64,000 nucleotides of DNA, from positions 10,786 to 74,785 of the forward strand of contig JAPLHV010000157.1 of assembly GCA_026389455.1 (NCBI GenBank), in the 5' to 3' direction. This stretch comes from Coprothermobacterota bacterium (GTDB lineage Bacteria > Caldisericota > JANLFM01). Of this stretch, positions 23,449 to 39,004 are shown piece after piece. Each line of letters begins with the position of its first letter. The first letter of the stretch is position 1. Both the position numbers and the translations under genes were made by a program. The notes below the pieces were generated by a model. It searched no databases, had not been told where the DNA came from, and was given only the letters and a program-made list of their open reading frames with translations.

Positions 23449-24309
23449 TTGATTAGACCGTTCAAGTACAGCAAACCGCGTTTCTTGAGGGAAGCGCTGG
23501 AAGCCTTGGAAAAAGAGAATGCCCGAGCCCTGGCTGGTGGAAGCGATCTTTTGGTAGAGTTGCGGGAAGGGAAGAGCCAAGCAGAGCACATTGTTGATGT
23601 GAAAGCCATTCCTGAGCTAAGTTGTTTCTCGATTGGCAAGGATGGGATCATTATCGGGGGGCAGTTAACACTCAATGAATTAGCAGAATCCAAGGAACTT
23701 GGGCAAACATGTCCTATCTTGGGTGACGCAGCCAGGACGGTGGCCACGCCGCAAGTGCGCAACCGGGCTACCCTGGTTGGAAATCTATGCACTGCTTCCC
23801 CTGCGGCCGATTTGGCGCCTCCACTTTTCGTGTTAGGCGCCGCTGTGGTTGTCGCTTCAAAAGAGGGAGAGCAAAGAATCCCGATCCAGCAGTTCTTCCA
23901 AGGACCGAAAAAGAACTGCTTACAGCCTGGCCAACTGGTCCTGCGGGTAGAGATCCCGCCACGCTCCACTGGACGAGGCGTGTTCATGAAGAAATCGCGC
24001 GTGCGAGGACATGATCTGGCTACCATCAATGTAGCAGGCTGGACAAATCCTCAAGCCGGCATCCTGCGCATTTGCATCGGGGCTTGTGGTCCCACCCCGG
24101 TATTGCTGACGAGCAGCGATGAGCTCTATCAGCGGGCGGTTTGCCGTGATGAGCTTCTTGATGGATTGGCCACGCTCGCCCAGGACCAAATTGCCCCAAT
24201 TGACGACTTGCGGGCATCTGCTGCGTACCGCCGCAGTCTGGTTACTGTTTTCCTGGGTCGGATGGTGCGGATTCTTTTCCCGGAGGAAGGAGGCTGGCCT
24301 CATGTTTGA
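23449..24309 (+). CDS. Mo-hydroxylase FAD-binding subunit (second copy)
   Basis: AGGSDLL motif; TTG start 10 nt after GAGGAG; paralog of the ORF at 1189-2067. Confidence 0.75.
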   Translation: MIRPFKYSKPRFLREALEALEKENARALAGGSDLLVELREGKSQAEHIVDVKAIPELSCFSIGKDGIIIGGQLTLNELAESKELGQTCPILGDAARTVATPQVRNRATLVGNLCTASPAADLAPPLFVLGAAVVVASKEGEQRIPIQQFFQGPKKNCLQPGQLVLRVEIPPRSTGRGVFMKKSRVRGHDLATINVAGWTNPQAGILRICIGACGPTPVLLTSSDELYQRAVCRDELLDGLATLAQDQIAPIDDLRASAAYRRSLVTVFLGRMVRILFPEEGGWPHV

Positions 24310-24832
24310 TGAAACCCCACAGAACACCCTGCCGGGGGCTATCAAGCTGCCGGGGGCTGTTTACACGATCAGCGTTGAAGTAAACGGGAAAGCATGCACC
24401 GAGGAGGCGCCTGCTCAGATGACTTTGCTGCAATTCCTGCGCGAACGGCTATTTTTGACCGGGGCCAAGGAGGGTTGCGGAGTAGGGGAGTGTGGCGCCT
24501 GCACGGTGCTTCTAAATGGGCGAGCTGTTGATGCCTGTTTAGTCCTGGCAGTGGAGGCAGACCAGGCCAGTGTCCGCACGGTGGAAGGGGAAGCCAGGGA
24601 TGGAGAATTGACTCTCCTTCAGCGAGCCTTCATCGAGCACGGCGCGGTGCAATGCGGCTTCTGCACTTCGGGAATGCTTTTATCGGCACAGAGCTTGTTG
24701 GAGAGTAACCCTCATCCCAACAGAGAAGAGATCGTAGAAGCCATCTCCGGCAACCTTTGCCGCTGTACCGGCTACGTGCAGATTCTGGAGGCGATTGAAG
24801 CGGTTGGAGAGGGAATGGAGGAGGGCGGATGA
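24302..24832 (+). CDS. Mo-hydroxylase [2Fe-2S] subunit (second copy); N-terminal ~20 aa encoded by the dispersed repeat
   Basis: CGVGECGACTV, CGFCTSGM and CRCTGY motifs; ATG 24302 overlaps the upstream stop (ATGTTTGA); residues 6-17 (TLPGAIKLPGAV) are encoded by the CACCCTGCCGGGGGCTAT repeat. Confidence 0.75.
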   Translation: MFDETPQNTLPGAIKLPGAVYTISVEVNGKACTEEAPAQMTLLQFLRERLFLTGAKEGCGVGECGACTVLLNGRAVDACLVLAVEADQASVRTVEGEARDGELTLLQRAFIEHGAVQCGFCTSGMLLSAQSLLESNPHPNREEIVEAISGNLCRCTGYVQILEAIEAVGEGMEEGG

Positions 24833-27258
24833 GCGCTGATCAGGATTACAAATACATCGGCAAAGGGATCTCCCGCCTGGATGGGCCGGAGAAAGTAACC
24901 GGCAGCGCCATGTTCGTACACGACATGACCCTGCCGGGGATGCTCTATGGCAAGATGGTGAAGTCTCCCCACGCTTGCGCGCGCATCGTTTCCATCGATA
25001 TCAGCGAAGCGGAGAAGTCGCCGGGCGTGCGCGCTGTTCTCGTCGGTAGAGAGCTGCCCTACAAGGTTGGCATCTACATGATCGACAAAGACATCCTGGC
25101 CAAAGAGGTAGCCCGCTACCATGGAGAGCCGGTGGTGGCAATCGCCGCACAGAGCGAGTTGGCCGCCGAGGAGGCTTGTGCCAAGGTGAAGATTGTGTGG
25201 GAGGCGTTGCCCGCTGTGCTCGACCCGCGCGAAGGATTGTCTCCAGCAGCCCCCTTGGTTCATCCAGAGTTGGCGAGCTATAGCTACATGAAGGGTGTCT
25301 TTCAACCTCAACCCGGCACCAACATCTCCCACCACCAGAAGATCCGTAAGGGTGATGTGGAGATAGCTCTTGCCAAAGCGGACGTAGTTTGGGAAGCCAA
25401 GTTCTACAACCCTCCCGTGCAGCATGTTGCCATGGAGACGCACACCTGCATCGCTCAAGCTTTGCCCGGCTCCCAAGTTCAAATCTGGACTTCAGCCCAA
25501 TCTCCCTTCACCGTGCGCAACCTCTTCTCAGCCTGCTTCGGCATCCCTCATCAAAATATCCGTGTCCATGTTCCCTACGTGGGAGGCGGTTTCGGCGGAA
25601 AAGCCGGCATTCACCTGGAGCCGTTGGCATATCTCCTATCCCAAAAAGCGGGAGGGCGTCCAGTCAAACTGACCATGACCCGCGAAGAGGAGTTCGGCGC
25701 CATGCCTTCCCGCCAAGGTCTTTACAGCCAGTTCACCACTGGCGCCACGCGCGAAGGGAAGATCATCTCTTTGGTCGCAAAGTACATTTGGGACGCCGGC
25801 GCCTATGCGGACTATGGGGTAAATGTTGGGCGAGCGGCCTCCTATTCGGGAGCCGGTCCCTACGAAATACCGAACTGCCATATCGATTCTTTGGTGGTCT
25901 ATACCAATAAGGTGTTCGGCACAGCTTATCGCGGCTTCGGCCATTTGGAAGCGCTCTGGGGAATCGAGCGAAACATGGACATCGGCGCTCGCCGGCTTGG
26001 CTTGGACCCAGTGGAGTTCCGCCGGCGCAATGTGTTGCGTCCTGGAGCAAAGACGATTACAGGTGAGACAGTGACCGAGCACACCGGCCGTGTCGACCTC
26101 TGCTTGGAGAAAGTTGCCGAGGAGATCGGCTGGAATGGGATTCAGACGGAGGAGGAGAGGGCACAAGCGATGGCCGGCGGAAAGGTGCGGGGAAAGGGAG
26201 TGGCTCTGCTGCACAAAGCCCCGGCGATGCCTGTCTTCACTTCCAGCGCCGCCCTGCTGAAGTTCAACGAGAATGGCTCGGTGGATCTCCTCACCTCGAT
26301 CATCGACTACGGTCAAGGAACCTACACCGCTCTTGCTCAAGCTGCAGCAGAGGAGTTGAAGATGCCCATCGAGCGGATTCAAGTTCCCTGGGAAAGTGAC
26401 ACTGCTATGACTCCTTATGACTGGCAGACAGTCGCCAGCCGCGGCGCTTTCATGGGCTGCAAGGCAGTGATTGCAGCGGCCCGTGACGCGTTGCAGCAGA
26501 TCAAGGAAACTGCCAGTCAGGTATTGCGGGCGCCGGTGGAAGAGCTGGTGTGCCGGGACGAGGTAGTTTTCGTCGCCCATCGCCCAGAAGAATGCCTTTC
26601 CTATCGAGAGGTAGTGATGGGGTACAGCTACCCCAACGGGAACTCCATCGGTGGACCGGTGATCGGCCGAGGTCACTACATCGCCCAGGGGCTGACCCAT
26701 CTTGACTTGGAAACAGGGCAGGGTTTACCCGCTCTGGATTGGACCTACGGCGCCCATGGGGCAGAGATCGAGGTGGATCTGGACACTGGGGAGATCACCG
26801 TGCTCAACCTGGCTACCGCTCTTGACGTCGGCCAGGTGCTAAACGCCCAATCCCTGCGTGGGCAGATCATCGGCGGCGTGGTGCAAGGGTTGGGGAGCGC
26901 CTTGTTGGAGGAGTTCCGCTTCTCACCCCAAGGCCGGCTGCTGAATGCCGGATTCGTCGATTATAAGATTCCAACCAGCAAGGATCTGCCCAGGAAGATG
27001 AGCCAGCATATAATCCTGACGGAACAGTTGGACGGGCCGTATGGAGCCCGCGGAGTGGCTGAACACCCCATGATATCAGTGCCAGGCGCGATCGGGAATG
27101 CTCTTTATGATGCCCTGGGAATTGATTTCTTCGAGTTGCCCCTGAATGCGGAGCGCGTTTGGCTGGGAATCCAGCGAAAGAGAAGTGAGACCCAGGACAC
27201 CCTGCCGGGGGCTATCAAGTTGCCGCGGGCTATACACTTGGATAAGGGAGGCGCCTGA
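24829..27258 (+). CDS. Mo-hydroxylase molybdopterin-binding large subunit (second copy)
   Basis: 809 aa; GGGFGGKAG motif; ATGA start/stop overlap; last ~20 aa (QDTLPGAIKLPRAIHLDKGGA) are encoded by the dispersed repeat. Confidence 0.85.
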   Translation: MSADQDYKYIGKGISRLDGPEKVTGSAMFVHDMTLPGMLYGKMVKSPHACARIVSIDISEAEKSPGVRAVLVGRELPYKVGIYMIDKDILAKEVARYHGEPVVAIAAQSELAAEEACAKVKIVWEALPAVLDPREGLSPAAPLVHPELASYSYMKGVFQPQPGTNISHHQKIRKGDVEIALAKADVVWEAKFYNPPVQHVAMETHTCIAQALPGSQVQIWTSAQSPFTVRNLFSACFGIPHQNIRVHVPYVGGGFGGKAGIHLEPLAYLLSQKAGGRPVKLTMTREEEFGAMPSRQGLYSQFTTGATREGKIISLVAKYIWDAGAYADYGVNVGRAASYSGAGPYEIPNCHIDSLVVYTNKVFGTAYRGFGHLEALWGIERNMDIGARRLGLDPVEFRRRNVLRPGAKTITGETVTEHTGRVDLCLEKVAEEIGWNGIQTEEERAQAMAGGKVRGKGVALLHKAPAMPVFTSSAALLKFNENGSVDLLTSIIDYGQGTYTALAQAAAEELKMPIERIQVPWESDTAMTPYDWQTVASRGAFMGCKAVIAAARDALQQIKETASQVLRAPVEELVCRDEVVFVAHRPEECLSYREVVMGYSYPNGNSIGGPVIGRGHYIAQGLTHLDLETGQGLPALDWTYGAHGAEIEVDLDTGEITVLNLATALDVGQVLNAQSLRGQIIGGVVQGLGSALLEEFRFSPQGRLLNAGFVDYKIPTSKDLPRKMSQHIILTEQLDGPYGARGVAEHPMISVPGAIGNALYDALGIDFFELPLNAERVWLGIQRKRSETQDTLPGAIKLPRAIHLDKGGA

Positions 27259-28814: not shown

Positions 28815-30259
28815 GCGTGGTCGACCTTTTCGGGCAATCCTTGCAAGTGATCAACATCGGTCTAGAGTCATTCGCCCAGAACCTCCGACAGGAGAGAGTG
28901 CCAGTGGTCCAGATGGACTGGCGGCCGCCGGCGGCTGGGGCGGAGGGAGTAGGGGAGACACCCTTGCGCATTGACCGCAAACAAGCCAACCGGGAAGCCG
29001 TCGACCGCTTGCTGCGCGGGCTGCCCGTCTTGACGGGCGTCTCCACAGCTGGAGCAGTGATCCCCGGGATGCGCAAGGATCTCTTCTTGCATGCCGGACC
29101 TCCCATCAGTTGGGAACGGATGTGCGGACCGATGCGGGGGGCAGTGATCGGTGGGATCCTCTTCGAAGGGCTGGCGGCGAGCGAGGAAGATGCCGAGCAA
29201 CTGGCCGCCTCCGGGGCGATAGCCTTCGAGCCCTGCCATGAACACGACGCTGTGGGACCGATGGCAGGCGTTACCACCTGGAGCATGCCGGTATGGGTGG
29301 TAGAGAACCGCACCTTCGGCAACCGCGCCTACTGCACCTTGAACGAGGGACTTGGAAAGGTGTTGCGCTACGGCGCCTACGCTCCTCCGGTCATCGAACA
29401 TTTGCGCTGGATGGCGGAGGAGTTGGGACCGGTCTTGGCTTTGACGATGGAGCGTCATGGGCCGTTGGACCTACGCGCGCTGATCGCTCAGGCCCTGCAG
29501 ATGGGCGATGAAGGTCACAATCGAAGTCGTGCCGGCACCTCTCTACTGATCCGCGAATTGGCGCCCGAGTTGGTTCGCCTGAAAGTGAAGCGAAAGAAAC
29601 TATCTGAAGTTCTCCGCTTTCTTCATAGCAACGACCATACCTTTCTCAATCTTTCCATGCCTTCGGCCAAGTGCATGCTGGATGCAGCCAACGGTGTGGA
29701 GGGCAGCTCGATGTTGGTGACTATGACCCGCAATGGCACGGATTTCGGCATTCGGCTGGCCGGCCTCCCCGAGCGCTGGTTCACCGCGCCAGCCAACTTG
29801 GTGCGCGGCCTCTATTTTCCCGGATACAGCGAATCGGACGCGGCCCTTGACATCGGCGACTCAGCCATCACCGAGACAGCCGGGCTGGGGGGGTTCGCCA
29901 TGGCCGCTGCTCCTGCCATCGTCCAATTCGTCGGCGGAACCCCGCAGGATGCTCTGCGCCTGACCCAGGAGATGTATGAAATCACCTTGGCGGAAAGCCA
30001 GAGCTGGCAGATCCCTAACCTCGGCTTCCGTGGAACGCCCAGCGGGATCGACCTCTTCCGTGTGCTGACCAGCGGCATCCTTCCATCCATCAATACGGGC
30101 ATCGCCCATAAAGATCCAGGCGTGGGAATGATCGGGGCCGGTCTCGTACAGCCGCCCTGGAACTGTTTTCAGTCTGCCTACCAGGCTTACGTGCAGCAGT
30201 ACGCCGCTACTCTTAGCGGAAATGGAGATAACCAACGAATCAAGGAGGAGAAACAATGA
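28811..30259 (+). CDS. DUF1116 (YlbE-like) protein
   Basis: 482 aa; conserved tail GLGGFAMAAAPAI...NTGIAH shared with the ORF at 1-394; located after the fdrA-like gene as in the E. coli fdrA-ylbE arrangement. Confidence 0.55.
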   Translation: MSVVDLFGQSLQVINIGLESFAQNLRQERVPVVQMDWRPPAAGAEGVGETPLRIDRKQANREAVDRLLRGLPVLTGVSTAGAVIPGMRKDLFLHAGPPISWERMCGPMRGAVIGGILFEGLAASEEDAEQLAASGAIAFEPCHEHDAVGPMAGVTTWSMPVWVVENRTFGNRAYCTLNEGLGKVLRYGAYAPPVIEHLRWMAEELGPVLALTMERHGPLDLRALIAQALQMGDEGHNRSRAGTSLLIRELAPELVRLKVKRKKLSEVLRFLHSNDHTFLNLSMPSAKCMLDAANGVEGSSMLVTMTRNGTDFGIRLAGLPERWFTAPANLVRGLYFPGYSESDAALDIGDSAITETAGLGGFAMAAAPAIVQFVGGTPQDALRLTQEMYEITLAESQSWQIPNLGFRGTPSGIDLFRVLTSGILPSINTGIAHKDPGVGMIGAGLVQPPWNCFQSAYQAYVQQYAATLSGNGDNQRIKEEKQ

Positions 30260-31128
30260 AGCTGATTGACCTGACTATTCCTTTCGGCATTGCCACCCCG
30301 CCCTGGCCGACCTATGAGCCGCTGCAGTTGAAGTATTTTAAACGGTTGGCGCCCAACGGCGCCAACGGGCAACTGCTGACCACATCCAACCACGTCGGCA
30401 CTCACCTCGACGGGGAGATTCACTTCTACACACCGGGAAAAGACATCGCCTCGCTCTCCCTCGATTTCCTGGTCCATGAGGGAGCGGTCGTAGACCTTTC
30501 CGATTGCACGACTGACTACGACATCTACACTTCAAAACAGGTGGAGGAACGGGTAGAGGTCCGTGAAGGAGATATCTTGATCATTCACACCGGCTTCCAC
30601 CATTACGGCTGGGATCAACCCACGGCCAACGAGGTCCGTTACATGGTGCAGCACCCAGGCCCGGATGTGGAGTTCGTGGAGTGGGCAAAAGCCAAGAAGC
30701 TGCGTTGGATCGGGGTGGATTGCGGAAGCGCCGACCATCCCATGAATACCATCATCCGCAATTGGATGCCTGTTCAAGCCAAGGAGGCAGACGCTTTTTT
30801 CCGCCAGAAGTTCGGCGTCTCTCTGGAGGAGCGCTTTTCCCCGGATAAGTATCAGATGATGCACACACGGCTTTTCAGCCAAGGCATTATCCACGCCGAA
30901 TGCGTGGCCGGCGACATCGATCTGCTGCTCAACCAGCGGGCCATTATCGGATGTTTCCCCTGGCGTTTCGTGGACGGTGAATCCAGCATCAGTCGGATTG
31001 TGGCGATGGTCGAGGATGGACGTTACGAAGAATTGATGAAGAAGAAGGCGATGGCCTCGCTGACTCGCTTCGGCGACGTGGCAGGCGCCAGGAACCCCTG
31101 GATCCACGAACAGGCGCGAAAAAAGTAG
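30256..31128 (+). CDS. Cyclase-family metal-dependent hydrolase (kynurenine formamidase-like)
   Basis: HVGTHLDGEIH motif; ATGA overlap with the upstream gene; paralog of the ORF at 421-1182. Confidence 0.7.
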   Translation: MKLIDLTIPFGIATPPWPTYEPLQLKYFKRLAPNGANGQLLTTSNHVGTHLDGEIHFYTPGKDIASLSLDFLVHEGAVVDLSDCTTDYDIYTSKQVEERVEVREGDILIIHTGFHHYGWDQPTANEVRYMVQHPGPDVEFVEWAKAKKLRWIGVDCGSADHPMNTIIRNWMPVQAKEADAFFRQKFGVSLEERFSPDKYQMMHTRLFSQGIIHAECVAGDIDLLLNQRAIIGCFPWRFVDGESSISRIVAMVEDGRYEELMKKKAMASLTRFGDVAGARNPWIHEQARKK

Positions 31129-31219
31129 AGAGTCTCTTCCGTTTTGATCAAAGCGATGAGGGCGCCGGAAAGGGCGTCCTTGTTGTTATTCCGCAGATCA
31201 GAAGAATGCCAGAAAAACC

Positions 31220-31248
31220 TTGCCAGGGAAGAAAACATCTCGTATAAT
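31220..31248 (+). promoter_or_regulatory. Sigma70-type promoter (TTGCCA - 17 nt - TATAAT) upstream of the recombinase gene
   Basis: -35 hexamer at 31220-31225 and consensus -10 at 31243-31248 with a 17-nt spacer. Confidence 0.55.
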
Positions 31249-31253
31249 TTCTT

Positions 31254-31308
31254 ATGTCGGATAAGTGCCATTATCCGACATTAACTTAAGATGATATTAT
31301 CCGACATA
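31254..31308 (+). other. dif-like 11-6-11 palindromic recombinase core site plus an extra arm copy
   Basis: ATGTCGGATAA-gtgcca-TTATCCGACAT at 31254-31281, with a third TTATCCGACAT arm at 31297-31307. Confidence 0.55.
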
Positions 31309-31354
31309 AAGTGTACTCTCTCTCGATGAAGCAACAAAAAAAGCGGCCTTAAAA

Positions 31355-32320
31355 GTGGAGATAGAATCAGGAAACCTCGTCCAAGGTTGGGTGCGCGAGT
31401 TCCTCGAGCATCTGGAGATCGAGAAGAACTACTCGCAGTTGACGCTCCTGACCTACGGCAAACTGCTTCATCGCTTCACCGGTTGGTTGAATGAACGGCA
31501 ACTTGTCACAAAAGACGCCGCTGAGTTGGATCTAGAGACGATTCGGCAGTATCGCCTCTACCTTGCCCGCCTTCGCACGGATCAAGGCAAACCGCTGAAG
31601 AAAGTGACCCAAGCCTACCATGTCATTGCCCTGCGCTCCTTATTGCGCTTCCTGATCACTCAGAAACGGCTCTCAGTACTGTCTCCCGAGTTAGTGGAGC
31701 TTCCCAAGCTACCCCAGCGATCGGTAAACTTTCTCTCGATTGAGCAAATCGAAGATCTGCTGAAAATGCCGGACATTGTCTCGATCAGCGGTTTGCGCGA
31801 CCGAGCGATGATGGAAACACTTTTCAGCACAGGGTTGAGAGTCTCCGAGTTAGTCTCGTTGAACTGTGAACAGGTCAACTTGGATCGTCGAGAGTTCGGC
31901 GTGGTGGGAAAGGGTGGAAAGGCGCGAGTGGTCTTTCTATCTCAAGAAGCAGTTTTCTGGTTGAGACAGTATTTGGAGAAGCGCAATGACGAGTGCCACC
32001 CCCTCTTCATCAGTCACAGCGAGCGAGGGAAGCAAAGCCTCGACCGCCGTCTGACCGCTCGCTCGGTGGAGCGGCTGGTGCGAGCCTACGGCCAACGCGC
32101 ACGCTTACCTTTCGAGATCAAACCACACACCTTGCGTCATTCTTTCGCCACCGACTTGCTTTTTGCCGGGGCAGACATCCGTTCGGTTCAGGAAATGCTA
32201 GGACACGCCAGCATTCGTACTACTCAGGTGTACACGCATGTCACTGATCGCCAACTTCGTGATGTCCATCGCGCCTTTCACGGACATTCTCGCAGTGACT
32301 CTTCGGAGCAAGATAAATGA
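31355..32320 (+). CDS. Tyrosine site-specific recombinase, XerC/XerD family
   Basis: C-terminal catalytic region HTLRHSFATDLL...LGHASIRTTQVYTHV (R-H-R-Y tetrad context); N-terminal SAM-like domain; GTG start. Confidence 0.85.
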   Translation: MEIESGNLVQGWVREFLEHLEIEKNYSQLTLLTYGKLLHRFTGWLNERQLVTKDAAELDLETIRQYRLYLARLRTDQGKPLKKVTQAYHVIALRSLLRFLITQKRLSVLSPELVELPKLPQRSVNFLSIEQIEDLLKMPDIVSISGLRDRAMMETLFSTGLRVSELVSLNCEQVNLDRREFGVVGKGGKARVVFLSQEAVFWLRQYLEKRNDECHPLFISHSERGKQSLDRRLTARSVERLVRAYGQRARLPFEIKPHTLRHSFATDLLFAGADIRSVQEMLGHASIRTTQVYTHVTDRQLRDVHRAFHGHSRSDSSEQDK

Positions 32321-32324
32321 TTAC

Positions 32325-32712
32325 GGTTCCTTTTCATTTCAAGTGGGCATCCTACCAGCCTGCGGCAGCATGTCTTCTCCTGCCGCAGGCTGTTTAGTCC
32401 AGCTTCCCTGTAAATAGCCCCCGGCAGGGTGTTCATGGCGATGATGGTCTTTGAAGAGTCTTGTCGGCCCTGGGATAGTCCCAGGGATAGTCAAGCCCTT
32501 TTGCTCTTGAGGTCTCACCGACCCCGATCTGGTTTGCGCCGGAATGGTCCTCGTAGGGGCGGGTTTGAAACCCGCCCACGCACGAGCTGTCTCGGCATAG
32601 TGATGACTCATTCTCCAGAACACCCTGCCGGGGACTCCTAGGGGCGACGTATGCGTCGCCCCTAGGAGGGCTATCGAGCTGCCGCAAGTTGACTTGTTGT
32701 CGCTTACCCACC
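32325..32712 (+). repeat. Composite non-coding repeat region, copy 2 of the ~140-bp element (direct orientation relative to copy 1)
   Basis: Region 32345-32480 is about 90% identical to 21318-21455; hairpin at 32356-32392 with inverted loop; 18-mer at 32414-32431; 10-bp-stem hairpin at 32557-32577; perfect 13-bp IR at 32637-32666; shared end motif CTGCCGCAAGTTGAYTTGTTGTCG. Confidence 0.85.
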
Positions 32713-32772
32713 ATATCTTATCCCTTCCGGAAGGCGAAACGAGGCTCTCAGGGGCCTTCTCGCGCGAATTCC

Positions 32773-33681
32773 TTACAGCCCTTGCTGCCAGCCGTTTTCC
32801 AAGCCATGCTCCTCTAAGCAGCGAGAAGCGGAAGCGTATTCCTCGATCGAGATCGATCGGCGAAGCAAAGGATGTTCGCTGGCAAGGTAGGCAGGGAAAT
32901 ATTGAGCCATTACACTCAGGCTAGTCGTGGGAGAAAGTTCTTCGGCAATGAAACGAAAGGTCTCCTGCGTTCCCGCCAACCCACCCGGCAAGACAAGATG
33001 ACGGATGATCAAACCTCGCTTGGCGATCCCCTCATCATCTATCTGCAGCTCCCCCACTTGCCGAACCATCTCGCGCACTGCCTCCCTGTTGCGCGCAACA
33101 TAATCCCCTACTCCGGAAAGCTGGAAGGCCACGCGCTCGTCGGCGTATCGCATATCCGGCAAGTAGATATCGATGATGCCATCCAACAAAGCCAAGGTTT
33201 CCAAAGCATCATAGCCGGAGGTGTTATAGACGAAAGGGAGGCGAAAGCCCTGGGGGATGGCTAAGAGAAGAGCTTCCAGGATTTGTGGGACAACATGGCT
33301 GGGAGTGACTAAGTTTACGTTGTGACAGCCTCGATGCGCTAGATCCAGCATGATCTTGGCCAGTCCCTCGGCGGTGACGGTGCGGCCGTGCCCAATCTGG
33401 CTGATCGGGTAATTCTGGCAATAAATGCAACGCATATTGCAGTTTGTGAAGAATATCGTTCCTGATCCGCGAGACCCTGATAAAGGCGGCTCCTCGCCAT
33501 GGTGTGCGTTGAAAGAGGAGACTTGAGCGATGCATCCGGTATGGCAGGCGCCGATCTCCAGGGTGCGGTCTACTCCGCAACGGCGCGGGCAGAGGGTGCA
33601 TTTCCTTAATGTTCTCAGCCCCTCCCCTACTCTCTCCTCCAATTCACCGCTTTGATACAGCCTTAAATAGGATGGTTCCAT
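32773..33681 (-). CDS. AmmeMemoRadiSam-system radical SAM enzyme (PflA-like activase family)
   Basis: CNMRCIYCQN radical-SAM cluster motif (CX3CX2C) and overall size of about 300 aa. Confidence 0.65.
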   Translation of the reverse strand: MEPSYLRLYQSGELEERVGEGLRTLRKCTLCPRRCGVDRTLEIGACHTGCIAQVSSFNAHHGEEPPLSGSRGSGTIFFTNCNMRCIYCQNYPISQIGHGRTVTAEGLAKIMLDLAHRGCHNVNLVTPSHVVPQILEALLLAIPQGFRLPFVYNTSGYDALETLALLDGIIDIYLPDMRYADERVAFQLSGVGDYVARNREAVREMVRQVGELQIDDEGIAKRGLIIRHLVLPGGLAGTQETFRFIAEELSPTTSLSVMAQYFPAYLASEHPLLRRSISIEEYASASRCLEEHGLENGWQQGL

Positions 33682-35399: not shown

Positions 35400-36260
35400 T
35401 TATGAAGATGTCGGATAGGAGATGGCCAAGGCGGCGTATCCGACCACTTGCTCCCTTCCACTGCAGGTTTCCCCCGATGTAGCGTAGCGAAGCAGCTCAA
35501 CCTGGTGAGCCCCAGCCTGCCGAGCTGCCTCGATCAGCAAAATGACGGGGGCAAAACCACACATCGAGATCGGGACCGTGGTCACTCGCTGGTAAAGGAG
35601 GTCGCTATTCAGAGAGAGGATCGCCTCAAGGGCCATCTGATCCAAGCGATGGGCTTGCTCTTCGAAGTGATAGTGGGACAAGTCCGTGGAGGCAATGAAG
35701 ACCGCTTCCCTCTCCTCCTTCAAGCGGATGCCGATCGCTTCACCGACACGCTTTAGAGTGTCCAATTTATATGAAGAGACGCAAAGCGGCAGGAGACGAG
35801 CCTCTGGGTTGAGGTCTTGAAGGAAAGGCAATTGCACCTCTATCGAATGTTCGCGGCGGTGGGCCATGTCGTCTTCCTTCAGCTCGGGGATTTTGGCCAG
35901 GAAGTCGCGACCTTCCTCCTCGGCGATAGGTATCTGCCCGAGGGGGGTCGTCCAGGAGCCACCCGTCATCAGGGAAAAGGGAGCTCCCCTGCCTGTGTGA
36001 TTGGGTCCAGCCAGAAGAGCCCATTTGAACCCATTCTCGGCGAGCCGTTTGTAGGCATGTGCGGCGATCGGCCCCGAGCAGAGAAAGCCGGCATGGGGAA
36101 CCACCAAGCCAAAGAGCTTTCCGCCGGTAGGGTTCGCTTCTAAGGGAAGACGCAACCCAGGACCTAAGGGGTGTCGATAGCACTCCCCGATCAGCCGTGA
36201 CAGAGCGCCAGGCTCTCCAGGGTAAAAGGTTCCGGCAACAACGGGGACACGCACGCTCAC
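35400..36260 (-). CDS. MEMO1-family protein (AmmeMemoRadiSam system protein B)
   Basis: N-terminal VAGTFYPG motif and VVPHAGF motif; GTG start. Confidence 0.75.
   Translation of the reverse strand: MSVRVPVVAGTFYPGEPGALSRLIGECYRHPLGPGLRLPLEANPTGGKLFGLVVPHAGFLCSGPIAAHAYKRLAENGFKWALLAGPNHTGRGAPFSLMTGGSWTTPLGQIPIAEEEGRDFLAKIPELKEDDMAHRREHSIEVQLPFLQDLNPEARLLPLCVSSYKLDTLKRVGEAIGIRLKEEREAVFIASTDLSHYHFEEQAHRLDQMALEAILSLNSDLLYQRVTTVPISMCGFAPVILLIEAARQAGAHQVELLRYATSGETCSGREQVVGYAALAISYPTSS

Positions 36261-38926: not shown

Positions 38927-39004
<78 letters not shown>

What the first reader, a model, noticed from the sequence alone, without database searches (positions are those of the whole stretch)
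31220..31308. dif-like 11-6-11 perfect palindrome plus an accessory arm sits between a consensus promoter and the XerC/D-family recombinase gene
ATGTCGGATAA-GTGCCA-TTATCCGACAT has exactly the architecture of Xer core sites: 11-bp arms with inner ATAA/TTAT ends like E. coli dif, and a 6-bp spacer. A third TTATCCGACAT arm lies 15 nt downstream, and the site starts 6 nt after a TTGCCA-17-TATAAT promoter. Known single-recombinase Xer systems keep their site immediately upstream of the recombinase gene (xerS/difSL, and an XerA/dif pairing recalled for archaea). This is therefore either an unconventional chromosome-dimer-resolution module or the core attachment site of the island, and binding there would autoregulate the recombinase.
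Basis: partly seen in the sequence, partly recalled or inferred. Interest (0 to 1): 0.7.

Follow-up and report, generated by a model that had tools for sequence, protein, structure and literature searches.

The report
Dif-like recombinase site overlapping xer promoter
A perfect 28-bp palindrome built like a chromosome-dimer-resolution (dif) site sits on the promoter of a Xer-type recombinase gene and is kept there across a whole class of Chloroflexota bacteria, so it is most likely the enzyme's own target and self-regulating switch, an arrangement not described for this group in the papers I could search.

Summary
ATGTCGGATAA-GTGCCA-TTATCCGACAT lies at 31254-31281. A third identical arm lies at 31297-31307. 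A TTGCCA-17-TATAAT promoter ends 5 nt before the site, and the xer gene starts at 31355.

This is not an island. The gene is a conserved core gene of Dehalococcoidia-like Chloroflexota, with housekeeping synteny on one side and metabolic genes on the other.

All 12 distinct family loci examined (seven protein clusters, 55-92% identity) carry an 11-6-11 inverted repeat just upstream of xer. The arms change symmetrically and fit one consensus, A-T-(G/T)-T-C-G-(C/G)-A-(A/T)-A-A. That is the XerC-arm type of canonical dif. No XerD-type arm is present. A model built from these arms found only five strong sites in about 1 Mb of other loci, all upstream of xer genes at 40-51% identity (two in named Patescibacteria genomes).

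The site overlaps the promoter or start region wherever it is adjacent. Extra direct-repeat arms occur in some lineages, up to six at a 28-bp period.

Best reading: a self-contained dif-xer module that represses its own gene, resembling XerS/difSL, with TnpI/IRS-like accessory arms. Terminus location, single copy per genome and catalysis are untested, and GC skew in the window does not show a terminus.

The parts
31152..31187 (+). Stem-loop ending the upstream cyclase gene/operon (terminator-like), so xer needs its own promoter
   Evidence: The fold is -24.2 kcal/mol with z = -4.6. The cyclase ORF ends at 31128. L001 has a different hairpin at the same place.
31220..31248 (+). Sigma-70-type promoter TTGCCA-17-TATAAT of xer
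   Evidence: It is the only promoter-like match in 30500-33000, 11 of 12. The same geometry holds in L001 and L002. Near-consensus promoters ending 6-12 nt before the site also occur in L006, L008 and L033. This is a consensus match only; no transcript data exist.
31254..31264 (+). Left 11-bp arm ATGTCGGATAA of the core site
   Evidence: It fits the family half-site consensus and resembles XerC arms of published dif predictions.
31265..31270 (+). 6-bp asymmetric central region GTGCCA (reverse complement TGGCAC, family consensus roughly TG-n-n-A-C)
   Evidence: It is GTGTCA in L001 and GTTACA in L003. It is TGTAAC, TGTCAC or TGTATC in other lineages, which is the opposite polarity relative to xer.
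31271..31281 (+). Right 11-bp arm TTATCCGACAT, the exact reverse complement of the left arm
   Evidence: Symmetric covariation across 15 sites: 6 of 11 positions change on both sides, and 0 of 500 shuffles reach the covariation score.
31291..31307 (+). Accessory (third) arm TTATCCGACAT at 31297-31307, a direct repeat of the right arm 26 bp start-to-start, preceded by the hexamer ATGATA
   Evidence: The arm, ATGATA and the spacing are identical in L001 and L002, while the first nine bases of the 15-nt linker diverged. Analogous extra arms occur in L005 (one) and L169 (six at a 28-bp period).
31326..31352 (+). Eight-codon upstream ORF (MKQQKKRP*) ending 2 nt before the xer start codon
   Evidence: Read from the sequence. 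It is present in L001 and fused in frame in L002. Its function is not tested.
31355..32320 (+). xer gene: 321-aa Xer-type tyrosine recombinase with a complete catalytic set
   Evidence: It has Pfam Phage_integrase and SAM_1 domains. NCBIfam scores are XerD 248.6, XerC 240.4 and XerA 211.6 bits, all below the equivalog cut-offs. The best solved relative is E. coli XerD 1a0p at 1.5e-44, with the R, K, H-x-x-R, H and Y residues aligned. It belongs to a large Dehalococcoidia/Chloroflexota family.
32356..32392 (+). 13-bp-stem hairpin after xer (terminator-like)
   Evidence: See (pair I4; -30.5 kcal/mol, z = -4.8).

Best explanation
The 28-bp palindrome is the binding and recombination core site of the recombinase encoded immediately downstream. 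The two form a self-contained dif-xer module.

Inferred mechanism:
- One Xer monomer binds each 11-bp arm. Both arms are of the XerC-arm type, so a homodimer per site and a homotetramer per synapse suffice.
- Two copies of the site on a chromosome dimer are synapsed, and strands are exchanged across the 6-bp central region, which resolves the dimer.
- The site spans about +1 to +28 of the gene's own promoter, so occupancy blocks transcription and holds the recombinase at a low, self-limiting level.
- The third arm, 26 bp downstream, binds an extra monomer. It strengthens repression and/or gives the otherwise symmetric core a polarity and architecture, as the DR accessory motifs do for TnpI at the Tn4430 IRS.

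Shown here: the sequence anatomy; conservation and symmetric covariation of the site with the gene across the family; the XerC-arm-like consensus; the recurrent overlap with the promoter; an intact catalytic set.

Inferred, not shown: that Xer, rather than another protein, binds; that strand exchange occurs here; that this is the only such site and serves dimer resolution; the role of the third arm.
For: 1. All 12 distinct family loci examined, spanning seven protein clusters at 55-92% identity, have an 11-6-11 inverted repeat within 12-270 nt upstream of xer.
2. The arms change symmetrically. Six of 11 positions change on both sides, 86.7% of cells pair, and 0 of 500 shuffles reach the covariation score. 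Slid controls pair in 23-44% of cells.
3. In the close relatives L001 and L002 all three arms are identical, while the first nine bases of the linker and the DNA upstream of the promoter diverged.
4. The half-site consensus A-T-(G/T)-T-C-G-(C/G)-A-(A/T)-A-A matches the left, XerC-side arms of published dif predictions. Examples are ACTTCGCATAA, ACGTCCGATAA and TTGTCCGATAA, with inner ATAA/TTAT and TGTAnn centres.
5. A half-site model scanned over about 1.05 Mb of loci not used to build it gave only five sites scoring 19 or more, against a background maximum of 16.4. All five lie in the non-coding DNA upstream of a xer gene: L010 (Woesebacteria), L033 (Saccharibacteria), L090, L093 and L095. 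In three of them the site is 500-880 bp from the gene, so the linkage is more than an operator constraint.
6. The central region is conserved and asymmetric, as in recombination sites.
7. Near-consensus promoters end 6-12 nt before the site in the window, L001, L002, L006, L008 and L033. In L171, L172 and L095 a -10-like hexamer follows the site directly.
8. The catalytic residues are intact.
9. There are precedents. difSL lies immediately upstream of xerS, and its authors speculated it is in or next to the promoter. Site-gene proximity is called a possible hallmark of single-recombinase Xer systems, and some archaea have a xerA/dif module.
10. Logical point (my inference): a complete, perfectly symmetric site bound by an active recombinase would recombine with any second copy. 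It is therefore unlikely to coexist with a separate dif for the same enzyme.
Against: 1. No test of binding, cleavage or copy number per genome was possible.
2. A canonical dif profile built from published sites does not rank this site first in the window (z about 4.2, with several higher chance hits), because the XerD-type arm is missing.
3. The window shows no replichore switch. Cumulative GC skew rises throughout. Third-position skew depends on gene strand in the same way on both sides of the site: + genes -0.075 and -0.058, - genes -0.216 and -0.131.
4. Gene orientation does converge just downstream of xer in the window and five other loci, and GC skew changes sign in L003, L005, L006 and L008. 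That signal is confounded with coding strand.
5. The accessory arm is absent from most lineages, so it is not essential.
6. Some relatives carry a second Xer paralog nearby (L006, L007, L089), so a one-enzyme system is not proven for the family.
7. Kono et al. 2011 predicted a different, weak dif for three Dehalococcoides genomes.
Confidence: 0.6

Rival explanations
1. The site is an operator only. Xer binds the palindrome to repress its own promoter, but the chromosome's working dimer-resolution site lies elsewhere, and this copy is not used for strand exchange.
For: The site overlaps the promoter or the start of the transcript in nearly every lineage where it is adjacent. The window shows no terminus signature by GC skew. 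Kono et al. predicted other dif candidates near the skew switch in Dehalococcoides.
Against: In L093, L095 and L010 the site stays linked to xer at 500-880 bp with no clear promoter relation. The full 11-6-11 layout and a conserved asymmetric central region are kept, and repression alone does not need them. A second full site for an active recombinase in the same chromosome would be recombinogenic (my inference). The Dehalococcoides predictions are weakly palindromic and differ between closely related strains.
Confidence: 0.2
2. The palindrome is the operator of another dimeric transcription factor that controls xer, and its resemblance to dif is a coincidence.
For: Inverted repeats that overlap promoters are typical repressor sites. 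No binding data exist.
Against: No other copy occurs in 64 kb, so there is no sign of a regulon. The same arm motif follows xer genes from Dehalococcoidia to Patescibacteria and is not found next to other genes in about 1 Mb of loci. The arms match XerC-side arms of known dif predictions. The 11-6-11 layout matches tyrosine-recombinase core sites.
Confidence: 0.07
3. The element acts as RNA. A 5'-terminal hairpin of the xer mRNA (arm 1 with arm 2, or alternatively arm 1 with arm 3) controls stability or translation.
For: The predicted transcript would start at the left arm. The 61-nt segment folds at -17.2 kcal/mol with z = -4.4, pairing arm 1 with arm 3. The 117-nt leader pairs arm 1 with arm 2. 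Covariation keeps the pairing.
Against: The whole leader is not unusually stable (z = -1.9). There is no Rfam match. In L171, L172 and L095 the -10 element lies downstream of the palindrome, so it would not be transcribed with xer. In L008 and L170 the arms match in only 8 of 11 positions. Of 165 arm-position cells, 22 are unpaired and only 4 are G-U pairs.
Confidence: 0.05
4. The site is the attachment or resolution site of a mobile element (an island, an IMEX, or an IME1-like element of Dehalococcoidia) whose integrase is this Xer-like protein.
For: Site-next-to-integrase is the usual layout of integration modules. XerCD-family integrases head the IME1 elements of Dehalococcoides. The left flank differs between lineages. 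The same palindrome type occurs in 15 viral contigs, some with Xer-like genes.
Against: There is no second copy of the site in 64 kb and no tRNA at the gene; the nearest is tRNA-Pro at 38927. The flanks encode xanthine-dehydrogenase-type enzymes, transporters, csp, htrA, purA, der and cmk, with no phage, transposase or conjugation genes. The gene keeps conserved synteny in lineages down to 58% identity and belongs to a very large, apparently vertically inherited family.
Confidence: 0.05

Closest known systems
XerS/difSL module of streptococci and lactococci (Le Bourgeois et al. 2007, PMC1914069)
   Same: The recombination site lies immediately upstream of the recombinase gene and is conserved as a module. 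The neighbouring genes vary. The authors speculated that the site lies in or next to the promoter. The site was originally found by the same kind of comparative reasoning used here.
   Different: The protein is not XerS: NF003462 scores 131.7 bits against a cut-off of 267, and it has 321 aa against 356. difSL is 31 bp with imperfect, unequal arms. Here the site is 28 bp with perfectly symmetric XerC-type arms plus an accessory arm. Function and FtsK dependence are shown for XerS and not here.
Canonical XerCD/dif (E. coli and most bacteria; Kono et al. 2011, PMC3025954)
   Same: The 11-6-11 layout, the inner ATAA/TTAT ends, a left-arm consensus of the type nnTTCGCATAA or nTGTCCGATAA, and a central region resembling TGTAnn. 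The closest solved protein is E. coli XerD.
   Different: There is no XerD-type arm, and both arms are the same. The site abuts the gene instead of lying far from it. The protein is below both equivalog cut-offs. There is an accessory arm.
XerH/difH (Helicobacter, Campylobacter) and archaeal XerA/dif
   Same: These are single-recombinase systems whose site lies near the gene. Some archaea have a xerA/dif module. The XerA model nearly reaches its cut-off (211.6 against 220).
   Different: XerH is only a distant relative (5jjv, 7.9e-15). The XerA cut-off is not met, and the organism is bacterial.
TnpI/IRS resolution site of Tn4430 (Vanhooff et al. 2010, PMC2847244)
   Same: A perfectly symmetric inverted-repeat core, plus directly repeated accessory motifs bound by extra recombinase subunits. 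These give polarity and resolution selectivity without host factors. This matches the core-plus-direct-arm anatomy here and the six-arm array in L169.
   Different: There is no transposon: no transposase and no terminal repeats, and the gene sits in a chromosomal housekeeping context. Arm length and spacing differ. The accessory arms are lineage-specific here.
XerL/dif of Legionellales (PMC9765430)
   Same: A lineage-specific dif served by a single recombinase, recognised by these criteria: about 30 bp, palindromic, non-coding, with varying flanking genes. In Coxiella a dif copy lies immediately adjacent to xerL.
   Different: It is a different protein clade. Terminus location and function were shown there and not here.
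IME1 mobile elements of Dehalococcoides (bioRxiv 10.64898/2026.09.15.751708)
   Same: A XerCD-family tyrosine recombinase in Dehalococcoidia, placed at the edge of a unit.
   Different: IME1 elements integrate next to a tRNA and carry primase-helicase, pI-like and repressor genes. None of these is present here.

Membership tests
Canonical XerCD/dif | 28-bp site: two 11-bp arms around a 6-bp central region | tested here: met
Canonical XerCD/dif | Unequal arms, with the conserved XerD arm TTATGTnAAnT | tested here: not met
   Both arms are identical and of XerC type. A published-dif profile gives z of about 4.2, not the top hit in the window.
Canonical XerCD/dif | Recombinase passes the XerC or XerD equivalog model | tested here: not met
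   XerD scores 248.6 against a cut-off of 329.6. XerC scores 240.4 against 335.15.
Canonical XerCD/dif | Two paralogous recombinases in the genome | not testable with these tools
   There is no second Xer in the 64-kb window. A paralog lies nearby in L006, L007 and L089 only. The whole genome was not available.
Canonical XerCD/dif | Site at the replication terminus (GC-skew switch), one per chromosome | tested here: inconclusive
   Gene orientation converges at xer. GC and GC3 skew in the window show no switch. There is one copy in the window.
Canonical XerCD/dif | Activation by FtsK | not testable with these tools
   This needs experiments.
Single-recombinase Xer modules (XerS/difSL, XerH/difH, XerA/dif) | Site kept next to the recombinase gene as a conserved module | tested here: met
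   All 12 distinct family loci and 5 held-out loci.
Single-recombinase Xer modules (XerS/difSL, XerH/difH, XerA/dif) | Protein belongs to XerS, XerH or XerA | tested here: not met
   XerS scores 131.7 against 267. XerA scores 211.6 against 220. The XerH structure is only a distant match at 7.9e-15.
Single-recombinase Xer modules (XerS/difSL, XerH/difH, XerA/dif) | One recombinase is necessary and sufficient for recombination at the site | not testable with these tools
   The symmetric arms are compatible with a homomer. No functional data exist.
TnpI/IRS-type resolution site (Tn4430) | Symmetric core plus directly repeated accessory recombinase-binding motifs | tested here: met
   Also in L005 and L169.
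TnpI/IRS-type resolution site (Tn4430) | Part of a Tn3-family transposon (transposase, terminal inverted repeats) | tested here: not met
   The neighbours are metabolic and housekeeping genes.
Integrative element attachment site (island, IMEX, IME1) | Second copy of the site bounding an element; mobile-element genes; often a tRNA target | tested here: not met
   Synteny is conserved in relatives.
Integron (IntI/attI) | Integron-integrase protein model | tested here: not met
   TIGR02249 scores 113.3 against 265.

The most novel reading that the evidence does not exclude
Dehalococcoidia and some Patescibacteria use a previously undescribed class of chromosome-dimer-resolution system. It would consist of a single Xer acting as a homotetramer on a palindromic dif made of two XerC-type arms, encoded right behind its site and repressed by it. 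Lineage-specific arrays of extra recombinase-binding arms (one here, six at a 28-bp period in L169) would act as a built-in topological filter. They would give directionality without accessory host proteins, as in TnpI/IRS, and possibly without FtsK.
Probability: 0.2. Interest if true: 0.75.

Novelty: new variant of a known kind. Interest (0 to 1): 0.55.

Why it matters
Dimer resolution is close to universal, but its components are known experimentally only in a few phyla. The only dif predictions I found for Chloroflexota are three weak, mutually inconsistent sites in Dehalococcoides.

A conserved dif-xer module would give a concrete, testable dif for Dehalococcoidia, which include organohalide-respiring and abundant subsurface and marine lineages, and for part of the candidate phyla radiation. 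It would add a further case to the rule that single-recombinase Xer systems keep their site at the gene. It would provide a natural example of a chromosomal Xer site with cis accessory arms. It would also offer a compact site/recombinase pair for marker excision in organisms that lack genetic tools. If the site marks the terminus, it would help orient replichores in fragmented MAGs.

Tried and rejected
They served as a held-out or negative set, not as family sampling.

2. A simple best-palindrome scan upstream of those 79 genes found nothing consistent. The only matches of 10 or more out of 11 were GC-rich terminator hairpins.

3. A canonical dif profile built from published sites did not single out the site in the window. 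The reason is the missing XerD arm. It also found no convincing canonical dif elsewhere in the window.

4. Terminus tests were inconclusive. Window GC skew, left/right skew in six loci and per-gene third-position skew are dominated by a coding-strand effect and lean against a switch in the window.

5. The viral-contig scan for the degenerate palindrome gave 15 contigs of very different GC content. Only L184 shows a site-upstream-of-xer layout. I had no null expectation for that collection, so I draw no conclusion from it.

6. Rfam found nothing relevant.

7. The single 1-mismatch arm at 35408-35418 lies inside the end of a coding region and is within chance expectation.

8. Literature searches for Chloroflexi or Dehalococcoidia with dif, XerC or XerD found only Kono et al. 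2011 and the IME1 preprint.

9. Island, integron and invertible-promoter readings were rejected on gene content, protein scores and the 6-bp spacing between the repeats.

Full report
**Observation.**
The sequence is as described. TTGCCA is at 31220-31225, followed by a 17-nt spacer and TATAAT at 31243-31248. Five bases follow. Then come ATGTCGGATAA (31254-31264), GTGCCA (31265-31270) and TTATCCGACAT (31271-31281). After a 15-nt linker there is a third TTATCCGACAT at 31297-31307. The repeat finder gives 11-nt arms that are 100% complementary with 6 nt between them. It also gives a 13-nt perfect complement between the left arm and the third arm. The 11-mer occurs exactly three times in the 64-kb window, all here. 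The 28-mer with up to three mismatches occurs once, against none in 100 shuffles. The promoter is the only sigma-70-like match in 2.5 kb, at 11 of 12 positions. A strong hairpin at 31152-31187 closes the upstream cyclase gene, so xer needs its own promoter.

**The gene and its surroundings.**
ORF 31355-32320 is a 321-aa tyrosine recombinase with the SAM-like and catalytic domains.
- It scores 248.6 bits for XerD, 240.4 for XerC, 211.6 for XerA and 131.7 for XerS. All are below the curated cut-offs.
- Its best solved relative is E. coli XerD. The catalytic Arg, Lys, His-x-x-Arg, His and Tyr all align.
- Its closest homologues come from Dehalococcoidia and Chloroflexota metagenome genomes, and the family is very large.
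- The window has no second Xer and no tRNA near the gene; tRNA-Pro is at 38927.
- The left flank encodes two xanthine-dehydrogenase-type clusters, an amidohydrolase, an aminotransferase, a nucleoside-type ABC transporter, a carboxyltransferase, oxaloacetate-decarboxylase beta subunits and a citrate transporter.
- The right flank encodes a radical-SAM protein, a cold-shock protein, HtrA and a Memo-like protein. The syntenic relative L001 continues with PurA, Der and Cmk.
- Nothing here looks mobile.

**Relatives.**
I fetched the genomic context of homologues from seven protein clusters.
- Down to 58% identity, the gene keeps the convergent neighbours radical-SAM or small ORF, csp, htrA, memo and purA on its 3' side. 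The 5' side differs in every lineage.
- A second group has the conserved upstream neighbours dapF, an aminotransferase and hflX, with variable genes downstream.
- All 12 distinct family loci carry an 11-6-11 inverted repeat just upstream of xer:

| Locus | Left arm | Centre | Right arm |
|---|---|---|---|
| L001 | ATGTCGGATAA | GTGTCA | TTATCCGACAT |
| L002 | ATGTCGGATAA | GTGCCA | TTATCCGACAT |
| L003 | ATGTCAAATAA | GTTACA | TTATTTGACAT |
| L005 | ATTTCGCAAAA | TGTAAC | TTTTCCGAAAT |
| L172 | ATTTCGCAAAA | TGTAAC | TTTTGCGAAAT |
| L171 | ATGTCGTAAAA | TGTCAC | TTTTGCGACAA |
| L006, L007 | GTGTCGCAAAC | TGTAAC | TTTTGCGACAA |
| L089 | ACGTCGCAAAC | TGTCAC | TTTTGCGACAA |
| L008 | GGTTCTAATAA | TGGCAG | TTTTGCGAACC |
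| L170 | AGTTCGCAAAT | GAGTTG | TTATGCGAACC |
| L169 | ATTTCGCGAAA | GTGCCC | TTATCCGAAAT |

- In the 92% and 86% relatives all three arms are unchanged, while the first nine bases of the linker and the DNA upstream of the promoter diverged.
- Across 15 sites, six of the eleven arm positions show changes on both sides and 86.7% of cells pair. No shuffle of 500 reaches the covariation score, and slid registers pair in only 23-44% of cells.
- Caveat: the first eleven sites were picked as the best palindromes, so the pairing percentage is partly selected for. The shared arm motif is not.

**An independent test.**
I built a half-site model from the 22 arms.
- In about 1.05 Mb of loci not used for the model, only five sites score 19 or more. 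The next best score is 16.4. These loci are mostly Patescibacteria and assorted phyla.
- All five lie in the non-coding DNA upstream of a xer gene that is 40-51% identical to the window protein:
  - L093: ATGTCGCATAA TGTATC TTTTGCGACCC
  - L095: ATGTCGCACAA TGTATC TTTTGCGACAT
  - L010 (Woesebacteria): ATGTCGCACAA TAATAC TTTTGCGACGT
  - L090: ATGTCGGAAAC TGTACC TTTTACGACGT
  - L033 (Saccharibacteria): ACTTCGCATAA TGGTTC TTTATCGAAGT
- In L093, L095 and L010 the site is 500-880 bp from the start codon, with no large ORF between. The linkage is therefore kept even where the site cannot be a promoter-proximal operator.

**Likeness to dif.**
- The arm consensus is that of the left (XerC-side) arm of published dif predictions. 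Examples are ACTTCGCATAA (Akkermansia), ACGTCCGATAA (Alicyclobacillus), TTGTCCGATAA (Corynebacterium) and ATGTCTGATAA (Thermodesulfovibrio). The inner ATAA/TTAT ends and TGTAnn central regions are also shared.
- The central regions here fit T-G-n-n-A-C when read in one polarity. That polarity is the same as xer in most lineages. It is the opposite in the window, L001 to L003 and L169.
- What is missing is the XerD-type arm TTATGTnAAnT. A profile of published dif sites therefore scores the site only at z of about 4.2, below several chance hits in the window. None of those hits is palindromic.
- The site is best described as a dif-like core made of two XerC-type arms. This is what a homomeric enzyme would need.

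**Relation to the promoter.**
Near-consensus promoters whose -10 hexamer ends 6-12 nt before the first base of the site occur in the window, L001, L002, L006, L008 and L033. In L171, L172 and L095 a -10-like hexamer follows the site directly, so the site covers the -35 and spacer region. Occupancy would block transcription in either layout. Le Bourgeois et al. speculated the same for difSL and xerS.

**Accessory arms.**
- The third arm is present at the same spacing in the window, L001 and L002.
- L005 has one extra arm on the other side of the core.
- L169 has six direct arms, TTTGCGAAAY, at a 28-bp period between the core and the gene.
- Most other lineages have none.
- Background half-site hits at the threshold used are 0.3 per 400 bp.
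- In Tn4430, a perfectly symmetric IR1-IR2 core is flanked by direct DR1-DR2 motifs that bind extra TnpI subunits. These give the site polarity and resolution selectivity. That is the closest mechanistic analogue for the arms here, but it is an analogy only.

**Is it at the terminus?**
- Genes run on the + strand up to xer and on the - strand after it in the window. The same holds in L001, L003, L005, L006 and L008.
- GC skew is positive on the left and negative on the right in L003, L005, L006 and L008.
- In the window and in L001, however, the right side is about zero, and cumulative skew rises throughout the window.
- Third-position skew follows gene strand in the same way on both sides: + genes -0.075 and -0.058, - genes -0.216 and -0.131. 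This argues against a replichore switch inside this window if the genome has the usual skew.
- I could not obtain a complete genome. The point remains open.

**Rivals.**
- An operator-only role for Xer is the main alternative. It is hard to separate from the preferred reading without copy-number data.
- A different transcription factor is unlikely. The motif follows xer genes across phyla, resembles known Xer arms and shows no regulon-like copies.
- An RNA hairpin is possible in the window. It fails where the palindrome lies upstream of the -10 element or is only 8 of 11 complementary. Rfam has no match.
- An island or IME1-like element is contradicted by gene content, the single copy of the site and the conserved synteny.

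**What is known.**
Site-next-to-gene modules are established for XerS/difSL and noted for XerH and some XerA systems. XerL/dif shows that lineage-specific single-recombinase systems are still being found. For Chloroflexota I found only three weak, mutually different dif predictions for Dehalococcoides strains. I found nothing on a xer-linked site.

**Verdict.**
- The site-gene pairing is an ancient conserved module of a housekeeping Xer in Dehalococcoidia, and in xer loci at 40-51% identity that include two named Patescibacteria genomes.
- The best-supported function is the recombinase's own core site doubling as its operator.
- I rate it a new variant of a known kind, with moderate interest.

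Noticed in passing
window 21391, 21711, 24322, 27195, 32416, 32618, 44771, 44796, 47816, 56275, 59323, 61034, 62086: The 19-mer AGCCCCCGGCAGGGTGTTC occurs 13 times (up to 3 mismatches) against 0.04 expected. It looks like an interspersed REP- or MITE-like repeat of this genome.
   Followed up: partly
window 32321-32772: A 450-bp non-coding gap lies between xer and the convergent radical-SAM gene. The same gap is only 10 bp in the 92% relative L001. It holds an inverted pair of the 19-mer 183 nt apart (32416-32434 and 32618-32636), a perfect 15-bp hairpin (32635-32668) and a sub-threshold PrrB/RsmZ match. It is probably an inserted miniature element.
   Followed up: partly
L169 5703-5908: The core site ATTTCGCGAAA-GTGCCC-TTATCCGAAAT is followed by six direct repeats of TTTGCGAAAY at a 28-bp period, ahead of the xer gene at 6001. 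It is an iteron-like array of recombinase half-sites.
   Followed up: partly
L006 7526-8462; L007 4337-5275; L089 1959-2225: A second Xer paralog (about 30-32% identical to the window protein) lies two genes downstream of the first xer in one subclade. It is split by a frameshift in L006.
   Followed up: partly
window 31326-31352: An eight-codon upstream ORF (MKQQKKRP*) stops 2 nt before the GTG start of xer. It is kept in L001 (MTQQKKRP*) and fused in frame with xer in L002. This may indicate translational coupling.
   Followed up: no
L173-L187 (IMG/VR contigs): Fifteen viral contigs with GC content from 0.30 to 0.63 carry exact palindromes of the type ATGTCGCAAAA-N6-TTTTGCGACAT. L184 has one about 640 bp upstream of a Xer-like gene. 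No null expectation was available, and some contigs may be misclassified cellular DNA.
   Followed up: partly
window 355-1182 and 30256-31128; 1189-8324 and 24119-27258: There are two cyclase-family paralogs and two xanthine-dehydrogenase-type clusters in the left half. With them are an amidohydrolase, an aminotransferase and a Bmp-type ABC transporter, which suggests a purine or pyrimidine catabolic region. GC content is 0.48-0.53 up to 20 kb and mostly 0.55-0.61 beyond.
   Followed up: no
Kono et al. 2011, supplement (Dehalococcoides entries): The published dif predictions for three closely related Dehalococcoides strains differ from each other and are poorly palindromic. They may be false positives and should be rechecked against the xer-upstream region.
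   Followed up: no
L009-L039 (genome-contig hits): Among the loci the truncated genome scan returned, the closest relatives of this Xer are from Patescibacteria (43-53% identity), well above those from other phyla.
   Followed up: no
window, all genes: Third-codon-position GC skew is negative on the coding strand of nearly every gene, whichever strand it is on. Plain GC-skew plots in this genome therefore mostly track gene orientation.
   Followed up: yes
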